From IMG/VR virus record IMGVR_UViG_2859827302_000001: a DNA stretch of 47,387 nucleotides. One strand, given 5' to 3'. This document shows, piece after piece, positions 15,254-37,590 of this stretch. Positions within the stretch are counted from its first letter, which is position 1. Every line of letters starts with the position of its first letter. Position numbers and translations under genes: made by a program. The stretch comes from a virus (Duplodnaviria; Heunggongvirae; Uroviricota; Caudoviricetes). The notes beneath the pieces were generated by a model. The model had not been told where the DNA came from. It was given only the letters and a program-made list of their open reading frames with translations, and searched no databases.

Positions 15254-15452
15254 GAGGTTGCCCCGTATTCAGTGTCGCTGATTTGTATTGTCTGAAGTTG
15301 TTTTTACGTTAAGTTGATGCAGATCAATTAATACGATACCTGCGTCATAATTGATTATTTGACGTAGTTTGATGGCGTAGATGCACGTTGTGACATGTAG
15401 ATGATAATTATTATCATTTTGCGGGTCCTTTCCGGCGATCCGACAGGTTACG

Positions 15453-15464
15453 GGGCGGCGACCT
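15453..15464 (+). other. cosN (GGGCGGCGACCT, lambda 12-nt cohesive-end sequence); cosB follows to ~15640
   Basis: Exact lambda cohesive-end 12-mer followed by ...CTCGCGGTTTTTCACTATTTATGAAAATTTT, matching lambda cos context. Confidence 0.7.
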
Positions 15465-15732
15465 CGCGGTTTTTCACTATTTATGAAAATTTTTCAGGGA
15501 AAATCGTGTCGGTACTTCTCGAATATAACTTTTTGTTTTTTTTAATATTGCATCCGTAAAGGTCCGACATGAAAGTGTCCGAAAATGCCTTTTTCTGGCG
15601 TTTTCATGTCGGGCCTTGTATTTGATAATGGGTTGTTTTCATGAAGGTTAATAAAAAGAGGCTTGCCGAAATTTTCAATGAACTGCCCCGGGAATCCTGG
15701 AGACTAAACTTCCTGAGAAAGAGGTAAACAGG

Positions 15733-16059
15733 ATGACTAAAAATACTCGTTTTTCCCCTGAAGTCCGTCAACGGGCAGTCCGTATGGTTCTGGAAAGTCA
15801 GGGCGAATATGACTCACAATGGGCGACAATTTGTTCCATTGCTCCAAAGATTGGCTGTACGCCGGAGACTCTGCGTGTCTGGGTTCGCCAGCATGAGCGG
15901 GATACCGGGGGCGGTGATGGAGGGCTCACCACCGCTGAACGTCAGCGTCTGAAAGAGCTGGAGCGTGAAAATCGTGAACTGCGCCGCAGTAACGATATCC
16001 TTCGCCAGGCTTCCGCTTATTTTGCGAAGGCGGAGTTCGACCGCCTCTGGAAAAAATGA
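15733..16059 (+). CDS. IS629 OrfA
   Basis: [21 protein letters not shown]... Confidence 0.9.
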
Positions 16060-16946
16060 TGCCACTGCTGGATAAGCTGCGTGAGCAGTACGGGGTCGGA
16101 CCGCTATGCAGCGAACTGCATATTGCCCCGTCAACGTATTACCACTGTCAGCAACAGCGACATCATCCGGATAAACGCAGTGCCCGTGCGCAGCGCGATG
16201 ACTGGCTGAAGAAAGAGATACAGCGCGTATACGATGAAAATCACAAGGTATACGGTGTGCGTAAAGTCTGGCGTCAGTTGTTACGGGAAGGCATCAGAGT
16301 GGCCAGATGCACTGTGGCACGTCTCATGGCGGTTATGGGACTTGCCGGTGTTCTCCGGGGTAAAAAGGTCCGTACGACCATCAGCCGGAAAGCCGTTGCC
16401 GCAGGCGACCGCGTAAACCGTCAGTTCGTGGCAGAACGACCTGACCAGCTGTGGGTGGCTGATTTTACTTACGTCAGCACATGGCAGGGCTTCGTCTATG
16501 TGGCGTTCATCATTGATGTGTTTGCCGGATACATCGTGGGGTGGCGGGTCTCATCGTCCATGGAAACGACATTCGTGCTGGATGCTCTGGAGCAGGCGTT
16601 ATGGGCCCGTCGACCGTCCGGCACGGTCCATCACAGTGATAAAGGTTCTCAGTATGTATCGCTGGCCTACACACAGCGGCTTAAGGAAGCCGGATTACTG
16701 GCATCAACAGGAAGTACAGGCGACTCGTATGACAACGCGATGGCGGAGAGCATCAATGGTCTTTACAAAGCGGAGGTAATACACCGTAAGAGCTGGAAAA
16801 ACCGTGCAGAAGTGGAACTGGCCACACTCACGTGGGTGGACTGGTATAATAATCGACGATTGCTGGAAAGGCTGGGCCATACTCCTCCGGCAGAAGCAGA
16901 AAAAGCTTATTATGCTTCCATCGGAAACGATGATCTGGCAGCCTGA
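16056..16946 (+). CDS. IS629 OrfB transposase
   Basis: 296-aa DDE ORF overlapping orfA. Confidence 0.9.
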
Positions 16947-33196: not shown

Positions 33197-33774
33197 ACAC
33201 GGCAGCGGAAGCCATCCGGGCGCTGTCGTTACAGGTGCCGGGCTTTCGCCGTCAGATGAACGAAGGCTGGTACCAGATACGTATTGCCGGTTATGACACG
33301 GCACCGGAGGCGGTGTACGCCCGTCTTCACGAACAGCTGGGTGAGGGAACGGTCATCCATATTGTGCCGCGACTGGCCGGGGCCGGAAAGGGTGGACTGC
33401 AGATTGTGTTGGGGGCGGCAGCCATCGTGGGCTCTTTCTTCACTGCCGGGGCATCAATGGCGTTATGGGGTTCAGCCCTGGCAGCCGGTGGTTTTTCTGC
33501 CACCACGATGCTGTTTTCACTTGGAGCCAGCATGATTCTGGGCGGTGTGGCCCAGATGCTGGCCCCGAAGGCAAAAACACCGGATTACCGCGCAACGGAT
33601 AACGGCAGACAGAACACGTACTTTTCCTCGCTGGATAACATGATTGCCCAGGGGAACCCGATGCCGGTGCCTTACGGGGAAATGCTGGTTGGCTCCCGCC
33701 GTATATCCCAGGACATCAGCACCCGTGATGAAGGCGGGGGCGGAACGGTCGTGGTTATCGGGCGACAGGGATAA
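33094..33774 (+). CDS. I: tail tip assembly protein gpI
   Basis: MATTNAFCLASPPLARICLHGDLQRFG... lambda I-like. Confidence 0.75.
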   Translation: MATTNAFCLASPPLARICLHGDLQRFGRRLSLYVNTAAEAIRALSLQVPGFRRQMNEGWYQIRIAGYDTAPEAVYARLHEQLGEGTVIHIVPRLAGAGKGGLQIVLGAAAIVGSFFTAGASMALWGSALAAGGFSATTMLFSLGASMILGGVAQMLAPKAKTPDYRATDNGRQNTYFSSLDNMIAQGNPMPVPYGEMLVGSRRISQDISTRDEGGGGTVVVIGRQG

Positions 33775-33775
33775 A

Positions 33776-33812
33776 ACATAAAAAAATCCCGCAGTGATCG
33801 CGGAGCTGCGGG
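33776..33812 (-). terminator. terminator-like hairpin (minus-strand sense) at left edge of I-J spacer
   Basis: CCCGCAG-11nt-CTGCGGG with A-run on plus strand. Confidence 0.4.
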
Positions 33813-33986
33813 GACAGACAAATGAAGATCAATGTTAAGGAGTTGTTTTTGTTACTCGGGCAAAAAAACACTAACGCAGCGAAATTATAAGCGCCACAGT
33901 CAGTGTGTGAAAATGTGAAGATATTCAGAATTTTTATGCCATTACCGGTTTTAACCAACAGGATTATCGGTGGGCATGAAAGAAAA

Positions 33987-34019
33987 CCCCGGTATCTGCT
34001 GATACCGGGGTTTCTCTTT
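33987..34019 (+). terminator. strong rho-independent terminator in I-J spacer
   Basis: Perfect 10-bp stem CCCCGGTATC-TGCT-GATACCGGGG then TTTCTCTTT. Confidence 0.55.
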
Positions 34020-34116
34020 AGCATGGCAGAAATGTGTTTCATGCTTTTCGGGCGAAGGATATCCGACTTCTGTACGGAATGGCAAGTGGCGGTTAATTTA
34101 TTCAGGGGAAGGCTGT

Positions 34117-37100
34117 ATGGGAAAAGGTGGCGGTAAGGCACACACTCCTCGTGAGGCGAAGGATAATCTCAAATCCACGCAGATGATGAGTGTGATTGAT
34201 GCGATAGGTGAGGGACCGATAGAAGGTCCGGTGAAGGGACTGCAGAGTATTCTGGTGAACAAAACCCCACTGACGGACACGGACGGCAATCCCGTGATAC
34301 ACGGTGTGACGGCGGTCTGGCGCGCCGGGGAGCAGGAGCAGACACCACCGGAAGGCTTTGAGTCCTCCGGCTCTGAAACCGGACTGGGCGTGGAAGTGAC
34401 GAAGGCAAAACCGGTGACGCGCACCATTACGTCCGCGAACATTGACCGCCTGCGGGTTACCTTCGGGGTGTAGTCACTGGTGCAGACCACGTCAAAGGGC
34501 GACCGTAATCCTTCCTCTGTCCGGATTCTGATTCAGTTACAGCGTAATGGCCGCTGGGTGACGGAAAAGGACGTCACCATTAACGGCAAGACCACCTCAC
34601 AGTTCCTGGCCTCGGTGATTCTGGATAATCTGCCTCCCCGGCCCTTTAACATCCGGATGGTCAGGGAGACGGCGGACAGCACCACGGACCAGCTGCAGAA
34701 TAAGACGCTGTGGTCGTCATACACCGAAATCATCGATGTGAAACAGTGCTACCCGAACACGGCCATTGTGGGGCTGCAGGTGGATGCGGAGCAGTTCGGC
34801 GGCCAGCAGATGACGGTGAACTACCATATCCGCGGTCGCATCATCCAGGTGCCGTCAAACTATGACCCGGAAAAACGCACGTACAGTGGTATCTGGGACG
34901 GCAGTCTGAAACCGGCATACAGCAACAACCCGGCCTGGTGCCTGTGGGACATGCTGACTCACCCGCGCTACGGCATGGGAAAACGTCTGGGGGCGGCGGA
35001 TGTGGACAAGTGGGCGCAGTATGCCATCGGGCAGTACTGCGACCAGACGGTCCCGGATGGTTTCGGGGGGACCGAGCCGCGGATGACCTTTAATGCGTAC
35101 CTGGCACAACAGCGTAAGGCGTGGGACGTTCTCAGTGATTTCTGCTCTGCGATGCGCTGTATGCCGGTATGGAACGGTCAGACGCTGACGTTCGTTCAGG
35201 ACCGCCCGTCGGATGTGGTGTGGCCGTACACCAACAGCGATGTGGTGGTGGATGATAACGGCGTGGGATTCCGCTACAGCTTCAGTGCCCTGAAGGACCG
35301 GCACACGGCGGTGGAGGTGAATTACACCGACCCGCAGAACGGCTGGCAGACCTCCACGGAACTGGTGGAAGACCCGGAAGCCATACTGCGCTACGGACGC
35401 AACCTGCTGAAGATGGATGCGTTTGGCTGTACCTGCCGCGGTCAGGCTCACCGTGCAGGTCTGTGGGTGATAAAGACCGGACTGCTGGAAACGCAGACGG
35501 TGGACTTCACGCTCGGGTCACAGGGGCTGCGTCACACACCGGGTGACATTATTGAAATCTGTGATAACGACTATGCCGGGACTATGACCGGCGGACGTGT
35601 CCTGTCCATTGATGCTGCCACCCGCACCCTGACGCTGGACCGTGAGGTTACCCTGCCGGAGACAGGTACATCGGCGGTGAACCTGATTAACGGCAGCGGT
35701 AAGCCGGTGAGTGTGGACATCACCGCACACCCCGCGCCGGACCGGATACAGGTCAGTACCCTGCCTGATGGTGTGGAGACATACGGGGTGTGGGGACTCT
35801 CCCTGCCGTCACTGCGCCGTCGCCTGTTCCGCTGTGTCTCCGTCCGGGAAAACACGGACGGCACCTTTGCCATCACGGCGGTGCAGCACGTACCGGAAAA
35901 AGAAGCCATCGTGGATAACGGTGCCCGCTTTGAGCCGCAGTCAGGCTCCCTGAACAGCGTCATCCCACCGGCAGTGCAGCACCTGACGGTGGAGGTGAGC
36001 GCAGCTGACGGCCAGTATCTGGCACAGGCGAAATGGGACACGCCGCGGGTGGTGAAGGGGGTGCGCTTCAGTCTGCGACTGACCAGCGGAAGCGGAGAAG
36101 ACAGCCGTCTGGTGACCACCGCTATCACTGCGGATACAGAGCATCGTTTCAGTGGCCTGCCGCTCGGGGAATACACCCTGACGGTGCGGGCGATAAACAG
36201 CTATGGCCAGCAGGGTGAACCTGCCACCACCACCTTCCGGATTGCCGCACCGGCAGCACCGTCGCGGATTGAGCTGACGCCGGGCTATTTTCAGATAACC
36301 GCCACGCCGCATCTTGCCGTTTATTACCCGACGGTACAGTTTGAGTTCTGGTTCTCGGAAAAGCGGATTGCGGATATCAGGCAGGTTGAAACCGCAGCCC
36401 GCTATCTTGGCTCGGCGCTGTACTGGATAGCTGCCAGTATCAATATCAAACCGGGCCATGATTATTATTTTTATATCCGCAGTGTGAATACTGTTGGCAA
36501 ATCGGCATTCGTGGAGGCTGTCGGTCGGGCGAGCGATGATGCGGAAGGTTACCTGGATTTCTTCAAAGGAGAAATCGGGAAAACACATCTGGCCCAGGAG
36601 CTGTGGACGCAGATTGATAACGGTCAGCTTGCGCCGGACCTGGCTGAAATCAGGACGTCCATTACGAATGTCAGCAATGAAATCACGCAGACCGTCAATA
36701 AAAAACTGGAAAATCAGAGTGCGGCAATCCAGCAGATACAGAAAGTTCAGGTTGATACAAATAATAACCTGAACAGCATGTGGGCCGTGAAACTGCAGCA
36801 GATGCAGGACGGACGCCTTTATATTGCGGGTATCGATGCCGGTATTGAGAATACGCCAGCAGGAATGCAGAGTCAGGTGCTGCTGGCGGCAGATAGGATT
36901 GCGATGATTAATCCTGCGAATGGCAACACAAAGCCGATGTTTGTTGGTCAGGGCGATCAGATATTTATGAATGAAGTGTTCCTGAAATATCTGACGGCTC
37001 CCACCATTACCAGCGGCGGTAATCCTCCGGCATTTTCCCTGACACCGGACGGGCGGCTGACGGCGAAAAATGCCGATATCAGCGGTAACGTGAATGCGAA

Positions 37101-37590
37101 CTCCGGGACGCTCAACAACGTCACGATTAACGAGAACTGTCGGGTTCTGGGAAAATTGTCCGCGAACCAGATTGAAGGCGATCTCGTTAAAACAGTGGGC
37201 AAAGCTTTCCCCCGGGACTCCCGTGCACCGGAGCGGTGGCCATCAGGAACCATTACCGTCAGGGTTTATGACGATCAGCCGTTTGACCGGCAGATTGTTA
37301 TTCCGGCGGTGGCATTCAGCGGCGCTAAACATGAGAAAGAGCATACTGATATTTACTCCTCATGCCGTCTGATAGTGCGGAAAAACGGTGCTGAAATTTA
37401 TAACCGTACCGCGCTGGATAATACGCTGATTTACAGTGGTGTTATTGATATGCCTGCCGGTCACGGTCACATGACACTGGAGTTTTCGGTGTCAGCATGG
37501 CTGGTAAATAACTGGTATCCCACAGCAAGTATCAGCGATTTGCTGGTTGTGGTGATGAAGAAAGCCACTGCAGGCATCACGATTAGCTGA
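34117..37590 (+). pseudogene. J: tail tip/host specificity protein gpJ with in-frame amber codon at 34471..34473
   Basis: ORFs 34117..34473 and 34480..37590 share one frame; TAG sits where lambda J has Gln ([22 protein letters not shown]). Confidence 0.85.

What the first reader, a model, noticed from the sequence alone, without database searches (positions are those of the whole stretch)
33775..34116. 340-bp non-coding insert between tail genes I and J, bounded by opposing terminators
In lambda, I and J abut; here a spacer with no credible ORF separates them. Its left edge has a minus-sense terminator hairpin and its right edge a perfect 10-bp-stem plus-sense terminator, leaving about 170 bp between that could be an independently transcribed small RNA, or a moron remnant. 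Prophage-encoded sRNAs are known in E. coli, so this is a plausible candidate.
Basis: partly seen in the sequence, partly recalled or inferred. Interest (0 to 1): 0.5.

Follow-up and report, generated by a model that had tools for sequence, protein, structure and literature searches.

The report
Known prophage small RNA gene pasB

Summary
The 342-bp non-coding spacer (33775-34116) is real. Its left half is the sRNA gene pasB on the minus strand. The published PasB Northern probe matches 33785-33807 exactly. The 83-nt PasB of EPEC E2348/69 maps to 33862->33780 with one mismatch, at position 27. In E2348/69, PasB was shown by Northern blot, Hfq-dependent stability and RIL-seq. I also find that EcOnc22/23/24 of O157 Sakai (about 85 nt, Hfq-dependent) are alleles of the same gene at the same I-J position. 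The right half (33938-34116, "module A") is a nearly invariant block. It contains a perfect 13-bp hairpin (33984-34013) with A/T tracts on both sides, which makes it a bidirectional terminator. It sits in the middle of the spacer, not at its right edge. Other spacer variants carry a plus-strand terminator hairpin at this position, and lambda has a weaker hairpin with a T-rich tail there, so the hairpin looks like an ancestral I-J element rather than the end of an sRNA. A second minus-strand sRNA in module A is possible but unsupported. Verdict: already known, low novelty.

The parts
33780..33862 (-). pasB sRNA with the published ends (83 nt). It differs from E2348/69 PasB by one base: A instead of C at RNA position 27 (window 33836).
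   Evidence: E2348/69 PasB (NC_011601.1, 1466343->1466261, minus strand; Table S6 of PMC8550237) maps here, with record coordinate = window + 1432481. Identity is 82/83. The Northern probe AATCCCGCAGTGATCGCGGAGCT matches 33785-33807 exactly.
33863..33877 (-). Predicted 5' extension of the primary transcript (GCGUUAGUGUUUUUU). With a start near 33877 the RNA would be about 98 nt.
   Evidence: The position is 7 nt downstream of the -10 hexamer. CTGCGTTA followed by a U-run is conserved in 41 alleles. This is an inference; no 5'-end mapping is available.
33788..33812 (-). PasB intrinsic terminator: stem CCCGCAG/CUGCGGG with an 11-nt loop, followed by A and seven U at 33780-33787.
   Evidence: Found by the terminator scan and by folding. 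RNAalifold on 14 alleles keeps only this stem. The stem is invariant and the loop varies from 4 to 16 nt.
33884..33911 (-). pasB promoter: -35 TTCACA (33911-33906), 16-nt spacer, -10 TATAAT (33889-33884).
   Evidence: It matches the sigma-70 consensus at 11 of 12 positions. It is identical in E2348/69. In E2348/69, pasB RNA-seq baseMean is 482-1082 against 3-15 for the flanking tail genes.
33914..33929 (-). CRP/FNR-like palindrome TCTGA-N6-TCACA upstream of and overlapping the promoter. Its centre lies near -44.5 from the predicted start.
   Evidence: Read from the sequence. The half-sites are kept in the diverged Sakai alleles although the spacer and the -35 hexamer change. This is a lead only; the position is not the canonical -41.5.
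33938..34116 (.). Module A: a 179-nt non-coding block between the pasB promoter and J. It is absent from E2348/69 and Sakai, which carry an unrelated module B of about 95 nt.
   Evidence: Alignments. It is at least 99% identical in 1442 of 1451 matching E. coli records. Nucleotide diversity is 0.0022, against 0.028-0.049 in the adjacent coding DNA. It is always found in this context.
33979..34018 (.). Bidirectional intrinsic terminator: a perfect 13-bp stem (33984-33996 and 34001-34013), a 4-nt loop, and flanking A and T tracts that pair with each other.
   Evidence: -27 kcal/mol (z = -5.4) for the hairpin alone; -32 to -40 kcal/mol (z = -6.3 to -7.3) for longer stretches that also include a second hairpin.
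34056..34085 (-). Weak promoter-like site (TTGCCA-18-TATCCT). Together with the hairpin it could define a minus-strand RNA of about 74 nt (about 34049->33976).
   Evidence: It matches at 9 of 12 positions, and 0.7 sites of this quality are expected by chance in the scanned region. There is no expression evidence.
34100..34119 (+). Ribosome-binding site of J (GGGGAAGG) and its ATG at 34117.
   Evidence: J is annotated at the same position in LC567822.

Best explanation
The spacer consists of two elements.

1. At 33780-33911 on the minus strand lies pasB. It is a self-contained sRNA gene (sigma-70 promoter, RNA of about 83-98 nt, intrinsic terminator with a U7 tail), inserted as a moron antisense to the late tail operon, 5 nt after the stop codon of I. 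In the lysogen it is transcribed on its own while the tail genes are silent. The RNA is bound and stabilised by Hfq and base-pairs in trans with host and accessory-genome mRNAs. These points were shown for the E2348/69 allele, which differs by 1 nt. The RNA body is unstructured. It carries an (ARN)5 block (AGUAACAAAAACAAC), an anti-Shine-Dalgarno-like CUCCUUA, and the family-wide core AUCUU just upstream of the terminator. From these I infer pairing at ribosome-binding sites and class-II-like Hfq binding.

2. At 33938-34116 lies a fixed block whose main feature is a very stable bidirectional terminator hairpin upstream of the J ribosome-binding site. The other spacer variants carry a plus-strand terminator hairpin at the same position, and lambda has a weaker hairpin with a T-rich tail there. 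I infer that this is the ancestral I-J intergenic hairpin. It would stop stray transcription in either direction in the lysogen, shielding the pasB promoter from antisense read-in, and it would be read through by Q-modified polymerase during lytic growth.
For: Identity with PasB:
- The Northern probe matches exactly.
- Identity to E2348/69 PasB is 82/83 and the promoter is identical.
- Synteny is the same: antisense in the I-J spacer.

Experimental basis, from PMC8550237:
- Northern band of the predicted size.
- log2 fold change in the hfq deletion of -6.8 and -2.4.
- 37 RIL-seq interactions.
- Expression 30-300 times that of the neighbouring tail genes.

Same family in O157 Sakai:
- EcOnc22/23/24 are about 85 nt and destabilised without hfq (Table S2 of PMC4104026).
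- They lie in the I-J spacers of Sp15, Sp14 and Sp11, antisense to the tail genes.
- They align with PasB. I estimated the coordinate offset between genome versions with AgvB.

Promoter and terminator. The conserved blocks across 41 alleles are.

Hairpin element:
-.
- Module B has a plus-strand terminator found by the scan, with a C-G to T-A compensatory change among its variants.
Against: - No expression data exist for this window's strain.
- The published 5' end (33862) lies 15 nt downstream of the start predicted from the only good promoter. Either the RNA is processed or the published end is approximate.
- PasB's targets did not yield a common motif in the original study, so the seed and the anti-SD idea are inference.
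- No covariation supports any structure, because the terminator stem never varies.
- The role of the hairpin in module A is inferred from sequence only. Its T-tracts are interrupted on both strands, and the terminator scan did not call it.
Confidence: 0.93

Rival explanations
1. Module A encodes a second minus-strand sRNA of about 74 nt (about 34049->33976). It would start at the weak TTGCCA-18-TATCCT promoter and end at the 13-bp hairpin, in tandem with pasB.
For: There is a promoter-like site at 34085-34056. The predicted RNA has a 5' hairpin, an A/U-rich linker and a terminator with a UUUUCUUUC tail, at -31.9 kcal/mol and z = -7.3. Module A is more than 10 times less diverse than the flanking coding DNA, which would fit a functional RNA gene.
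Against: The promoter matches only 9 of 12 positions, and about 0.7 such sites are expected by chance in the scanned region. There is no Rfam match and no transcript evidence. The strains with Hfq data (E2348/69, Sakai) lack module A. The low diversity is equally explained by a young block inherited as a unit while its flanks recombine. The z-score comes mostly from the hairpin alone.
Confidence: 0.15
2. The spacer, or module A, is a decayed remnant of a protein-coding moron such as sodC, and apart from pasB it has no present function.
For: The same junction holds a sodC gene between a pasB-like gene and J in strain CFSAN004176, so it is a site where morons insert. Natural variants have lost the hairpin (L071) or carry a ~1.3-kb insertion, probably an IS, inside module A (L026).
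Against: Module A shares no similarity with the sodC region, with any Pfam or PHROG family, or with any other phage DNA context. A decaying remnant should be variable, but module A is nearly invariant.
Confidence: 0.1
3. The region encodes a small protein, either the 128-aa minus-strand ORF or the 77-aa plus-strand ORF, rather than RNA elements.
For: Both ORFs exist. One phage record annotates a hypothetical protein over the region (H12).
Against: Neither ORF hits a protein family. In other alleles the open frame shrinks to 95, 81, 78 and 47 codons because indels are not multiples of three. The ORFs run through a promoter and two terminators and have no Shine-Dalgarno sequence.
Confidence: 0.02

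Closest known systems
PasB (pathogenicity-associated sRNA B) of EPEC E2348/69, prophage PP6. Sources: Pearl Mizrahi et al. 2021, PMC8550237; Zhu, Shabalina and Storz 2026, bioRxiv 10.64898/2026.05.13.724894.
   Same: 82 of 83 nt are identical, and the promoter, the terminator and the position (antisense, 5 nt after I, upstream of J) are the same. The single difference falls at position 27, where the preprint places the PasB/PasB-2 difference.
   Different: The DNA between the pasB promoter and J differs: the 179-nt module A here against about 95 nt of unrelated sequence in E2348/69. The window's allele has not itself been assayed.
EcOnc22/EcOnc23/EcOnc24 of E. coli O157:H7 Sakai, prophages Sp15, Sp14 and Sp11 (Tree et al. 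2014, PMC4104026).
   Same: Same I-J position and strand, same terminator stem and U7 tail, same AAUCUUC core, about 85 nt, and destabilised without Hfq.
   Different: The body and promoter are diverged: the -35 is TTCCGG, the -10 is AATAAT, and the 5' half differs. They carry module B. The Pas papers I read do not list them as PasB homologues; the equivalence is my inference from position and alignment, after correcting for a coordinate offset of about 140 nt.
Other prophage sRNAs placed at moron sites (AgvB, AsxR, PasA/C/D, STnc100, Esr41).
   Same: These are short Hfq-binding RNAs with their own promoter and terminator, inserted in lambdoid prophages and expressed in the lysogen.
   Different: There is no sequence or Rfam-model similarity. 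They sit near Q, the stx genes or the lysis genes, not in the tail operon.
The I-J intergenic hairpin of phage lambda (15445-15504).
   Same: A GC-rich hairpin followed by T's lies just upstream of the J ribosome-binding site, on the plus strand.
   Different: The lambda spacer is 60 nt with no sRNA gene. Its hairpin is shorter (8 bp) and has no sequence identity with module A. I know of no established function for it.

Membership tests
PasB / EcOnc22-24 sRNA family | Sequence identity to the experimentally defined 83-nt PasB of E2348/69 | tested here: met
   82/83 identical. The 23-nt Northern probe matches exactly at 33785-33807.
PasB / EcOnc22-24 sRNA family | Position: antisense in the spacer between tail assembly gene I and tail tip gene J of a lambdoid prophage | tested here: met
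   The arrangement is the same in Sakai Sp11, Sp14 and Sp15.
PasB / EcOnc22-24 sRNA family | Rho-independent terminator with a long U tail (Hfq-binding module) | tested here: met
   Stem CCCGCAG/CUGCGGG followed by A and U7. It is invariant in 14 of 14 representative alleles.
PasB / EcOnc22-24 sRNA family | Own promoter giving expression independent of the late operon | tested here: met
   Sequence prediction only: TTCACA-16-TATAAT, 11 of 12 positions. Independent expression was shown in E2348/69, not in this strain.
PasB / EcOnc22-24 sRNA family | Transcript detectable, Hfq-dependent, and forming RIL-seq chimeras with mRNAs | not testable with these tools
   Shown for the E2348/69 allele (PMC8550237) and, for Hfq dependence, for the Sakai alleles (PMC4104026). 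There are no data for this window.
Rfam families of prophage sRNAs (AgvB RF02702, AsxR RF02703, Esr41 RF02676, STnc100 RF02076) | Covariance-model score at or above the gathering threshold | tested here: not met
   No Rfam 15 family reaches its threshold in 33700-34200. The weak matches (E from 0.02 to 10) are all driven by the terminators. PasB matched no family in this Rfam 15 copy.
Moron (Juhala/Hendrix sense) | Extra DNA between two genes that lie closer together in related phages, carrying its own promoter and terminator | tested here: met
   The lambda I-J spacer is 60 nt against 342 nt here. The promoter and terminator are predicted. A sodC moron occupies the same junction elsewhere.
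Class II Hfq-dependent sRNA (ChiX/MgrR type) | (ARN)n motif for the distal face of Hfq plus a U-rich 3' end | tested here: inconclusive
   There is an (ARN)5 run, AGUAACAAAAACAAC. Other alleles keep only AAGAAUAAU. No binding data are available.
Intrinsic (bidirectional) terminator | GC-rich stem-loop flanked by an A-tract and a T-tract | tested here: inconclusive
   A perfect 13-bp stem with GAAAGAAAA upstream and TTTCTCTTT downstream. The scan tool did not call it, because the stem extends into the T-tract and both tracts are interrupted.

The most novel reading that the evidence does not exclude
Two readings remain open. In the first, module A, the almost invariant 179-nt block next to pasB, is itself a functional RNA gene: a second minus-strand sRNA of about 74 nt ending at the 13-bp hairpin. 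In the second, PasB also acts in cis. Because it is perfectly complementary to the I-J junction of the late polycistronic mRNA, it could direct cleavage there or be titrated by late mRNA on induction. That would link the lysogen's sRNA regulon to the lytic switch.
Probability: 0.15. Interest if true: 0.45.

Novelty: already known. Interest (0 to 1): 0.2.

Why it matters
It matters mainly as a correct call. A tool-free reading of raw sequence picked out a real sRNA gene that genome annotation misses: RefSeq records show no feature here, and no Rfam 15 family matched it.

PasB's function is still unknown, although the locus is present in about 30% of complete E. coli genomes, including ST131 and O157:H7.

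The work adds four modest points:
- The O157 sRNAs EcOnc22/23/24 and PasB are one family sitting at a fixed moron site in the tail operon.
- The family has deeply diverged alleles that share a promoter and a terminator.
- There is a possible CRP-type site upstream of the promoter.
- The neighbouring block is unusually conserved and contains a bidirectional terminator.

These points make promoter, target and cis-antisense experiments easy to design.

Tried and rejected
- Rfam at gathering and at permissive thresholds gave nothing meaningful in the spacer.
- AgvB/AsxR identity, my first guess, was rejected. The published sequences differ and no Rfam family, including AgvB and AsxR, hit the spacer.
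- Probes for PasA, PasC and PasD are absent from the window.
- Protein-coding readings of the three spacer ORFs were rejected.
- Module A as a remnant of the sodC moron was rejected: there is no similarity.
- Module A as a mobile or repeated element was rejected. It is found only between the pasB promoter and J.
- A plus-strand promoter that could make an sRNA ending at the hairpin was not found by the scan or by eye.
- Covariation support for a PasB structure is not obtainable, because the stem is invariant.
- I looked in the RIL-seq tables for intergenic features between pasB and J and found none. I could not extract the PasB target list within the look-up cap.
- A scan of one genome per species found the locus only in E. 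albertii, plus two short contigs in Asaia and Streptomyces assemblies that are probably contamination.

Full report
**Observation.** The window is a lambdoid prophage. Tail assembly gene I ends at 33774 and tail tip gene J starts at 34117, so the spacer of 342 bp is real.
- The three ORFs that cross the spacer have no Pfam or PHROG family.
- The longest ORF (128 codons, minus strand) is broken in other alleles.
- The left hairpin is a minus-strand intrinsic terminator.
- The right hairpin is a perfect 13-bp stem at 33984-33996 and 34001-34013. It lies 103 bp before J, not at the edge, and it has A and T tracts on both sides.
- In lambda, I and J are separated by 60 nt rather than abutting, and that spacer also holds a hairpin followed by T's.

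**Identification of the left half.** Rfam gave nothing. A literature search led to the Pas sRNAs of EPEC E2348/69.
- Table S6 of Pearl Mizrahi et al. 2021 (PMC8550237) lists PasB as an 83-nt minus-strand RNA of prophage PP6, between E2348C_1436 and E2348C_1437, with Northern probe AATCCCGCAGTGATCGCGGAGCT.
- That probe matches window 33785-33807 exactly on the plus strand, so the RNA is on the minus strand.
- In E2348/69 the two flanking genes are I and J.
- Alignment places PasB at window 33862->33780 with a single difference, A for C at RNA position 27.
- Zhu et al. 2026 report the PasB/PasB-2 difference at that same position. I could not see the variant's sequence, so the PasB-2 label is probable, not proven.
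- A promoter matching the sigma-70 consensus at 11 of 12 positions (TTCACA-16-TATAAT, 33911-33884) lies upstream and is identical in E2348/69.
- It predicts a start near 33877 and an RNA of about 98 nt. The published 5' end, taken from read coverage and approximate band size, is 15 nt further in. The difference is unexplained; it could reflect processing or an imprecise estimate.

**What is known experimentally (from the papers, not tested here).**
- PasB gives a Northern band of the expected size.
- It drops by log2 6.8 and 2.4 in an hfq deletion under the two growth conditions.
- It has 37 RIL-seq partners.
- It is more abundant in overnight static LB than in DMEM.
- Its RNA-seq level (baseMean 482-1082) far exceeds that of the flanking tail genes (3-15), so it is expressed independently in the lysogen.
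- No target motif was found for it, and its function is unknown.

**Extension: the same gene in O157 Sakai.**
- Table S2 of Tree et al. 2014 (PMC4104026) lists EcOnc22 (Sp15), EcOnc23 (Sp14) and EcOnc24 (Sp11) as homologous Hfq-bound RNAs. EcOnc22 is about 85 nt and is destabilised without hfq.
- All three coordinates fall in I-J spacers, on the strand antisense to the tail genes.
- The paper's coordinates are about 140 nt lower than those of the current RefSeq version. I estimated this offset with AgvB, at about 1.94 Mb only.
- After that correction the Hfq peak falls on a PasB-like gene that aligns with PasB. It has the same terminator and AAUCUUC core, with a diverged 5' half and promoter.
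- The Pas papers list EcOnc homologues for PasA and PasD but not for PasB. A 2021 review still lists EcOnc22-24 with unknown targets.

- Together with the other loci fetched, this gave 129 loci and 41 distinct pasB alleles.
- Conserved elements are the -35 and -10 hexamers, the first transcribed bases (CTGCGTTA followed by a U-run), an A-rich block, UCCUUA, AUCUU, and the terminator stem with its U tail. The 24 bases at and upstream of the -35 (33907-33930) were the search key, so their invariance is by construction.
- The A-rich block here is (ARN)5, AGUAACAAAAACAAC.
- The rest of the body falls into deeply diverged allele classes.
- RNAalifold finds only the terminator. Its stem never varies, so there is no covariation evidence for or against it.
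- The RNA therefore looks like a typical Hfq sRNA: an open body and a terminator that doubles as the Hfq-binding module.
- The CUCCUUA stretch resembles the anti-Shine-Dalgarno sequence. Pairing with ribosome-binding sites is my inference.
- Upstream of the promoter lies TCTGA-N6-TCACA, a CRP/FNR-type palindrome. Its half-sites persist in the Sakai alleles although the spacer and the -35 change.
- Higher expression in LB than in DMEM, a glucose-containing medium (composition from my own knowledge), would fit CRP. However, the centre at about -44.5 is off the canonical position and the two conditions differ in many respects. I treat this as a lead.

**The right half.** E2348/69, O55:H7 and Sakai have about 95 nt of unrelated sequence (module B) between the pasB promoter and J. 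The window and most other genomes have the 179-nt module A.
- Module A is at least 99% identical in 1442 of 1451 matching E. coli records, and it is 100% identical in the E. albertii locus.
- It is always found between the pasB promoter and J.
- Among 59 loci, its nucleotide diversity is 0.0022. The corresponding values are 0.049 for the last 300 nt of I, 0.028 for the first 300 nt of J, and 0.155 for the pasB body.
- Either the block is young and inherited as a unit while its flanks recombine, or it is under strong constraint. I cannot tell which.
- Its dominant feature is the 13-bp hairpin, which extends through A:U pairs. The hairpin alone folds at -27 kcal/mol; longer stretches that include a neighbouring hairpin reach -32 to -40 kcal/mol, with z between -5.4 and -7.3.
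- Module B also has a plus-strand terminator just upstream of J, which the scan tool found. Its variants show a C-G to T-A compensatory change.
- Lambda has a weaker hairpin with a T-rich tail at the same place (z = -2.8).
- I therefore read the hairpin as the ancestral I-J intergenic element, with pasB inserted between the end of I and this hairpin.
- The 103 nt after the hairpin are unstructured (z = +1.2) and end in the J ribosome-binding site.
- A weak minus-strand promoter-like site at 34085-34056 could, with the hairpin, define a second sRNA of about 74 nt. The site is no better than chance expectation and there is no transcript evidence, so I give this reading about 15%.

**The junction as a moron site.** In strain CFSAN004176 the order is I, a pasB-like gene (minus strand), sodC (minus strand), then J. 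Module A is unrelated to the sodC segment. Natural variants have lost the hairpin (L071), carry a ~1.3-kb insertion, probably an IS, in module A (L026), or have lost pasB together with the end of I (NZRM4165).

**Verdict.** The left half of the finding is the known sRNA gene pasB, equivalent to the EcOnc22 family. It has no annotated feature in any of the RefSeq records listed. Novelty is low: already known.

Noticed in passing
window 34471-34473: J carries an in-frame TAG where the related phage PPompW_132418 (LC567822; identical across the spacer, 148 differences in J) has CAG (Gln119). J is thereby split into 34117-34473 and 34480-37590. The tail tip gene is probably a pseudogene and the prophage is likely defective.
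   Followed up: partly
window 33938-34116 versus flanks: Among 59 loci, module A has a nucleotide diversity of 0.0022. The adjacent I and J coding DNA shows 0.028-0.049 and the pasB body 0.155. The cause is unexplained: recent origin with recombining flanks, or strong constraint.
   Followed up: partly
L130 1270-1441, L132 401-572, L133 451-622 (O157 Sakai Sp15, Sp14, Sp11): EcOnc22/23/24 of Tree et al. 2014 are alleles of PasB at the same I-J position. The Pas papers I read do not list this equivalence. The paper's coordinates are about 140 nt lower than those of NC_002695.2.
   Followed up: yes
window 33914-33929 (minus strand): There is a CRP/FNR-like palindrome, TCTGA-N6-TCACA, upstream of the pasB promoter. 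Its half-sites are kept in the diverged Sakai alleles. PasB is reported to be higher in overnight LB than in DMEM.
   Followed up: partly
L136 3414-4342 (E. coli CFSAN004176): The same I-J junction holds a pasB-like gene followed by a sodC (Cu/Zn superoxide dismutase) moron on the same strand. Stx2c phages match only the pasB promoter segment.
   Followed up: partly
L134 146-205 (lambda 15445-15504): The lambda I-J spacer has a hairpin, AAACCGCC-TGCG-GGCGGTTT, followed by TTGTCATTT. The 13-mer AAAATGTTTTATG upstream of it equals the window's AAAATGT...TTTATG with 16 nt removed. This may be a trace of shared ancestry or may be chance.
   Followed up: no
window 9252-9457 and 8927-9173: There is an STnc100 sRNA (143 bits) just downstream of three tRNA genes. 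STnc100 is the family that Zhu et al. relate to PasD. No PasA, PasC or PasD probe matches the window.
   Followed up: partly
window 16014-16130: There is an ALIL pseudoknot (120 bits), the frameshift signal of an IS3-family transposase. An insertion sequence therefore sits inside the prophage.
   Followed up: no
L007 (Asaia platycodi contig, 546 bp), L009 (Streptomyces flavalbus contig, 3408 bp): Short contigs in assemblies of unrelated bacteria carry this E. coli prophage locus, most likely through contamination. In L007 and a few viral contigs the DNA left of the -35 region is replaced by unrelated sequence that looks like an IS end, which cuts off the pasB -10 hexamer.
   Followed up: no
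L137 (E. coli NZRM4165); L071 and L026 (IMG/VR): Natural decay variants exist. One has a deletion that removes the 3' end of I, pasB and half of the hairpin. One has a precise loss of the hairpin between AGAAA repeats. One has an insertion of about 1.3 kb inside module A.
   Followed up: partly
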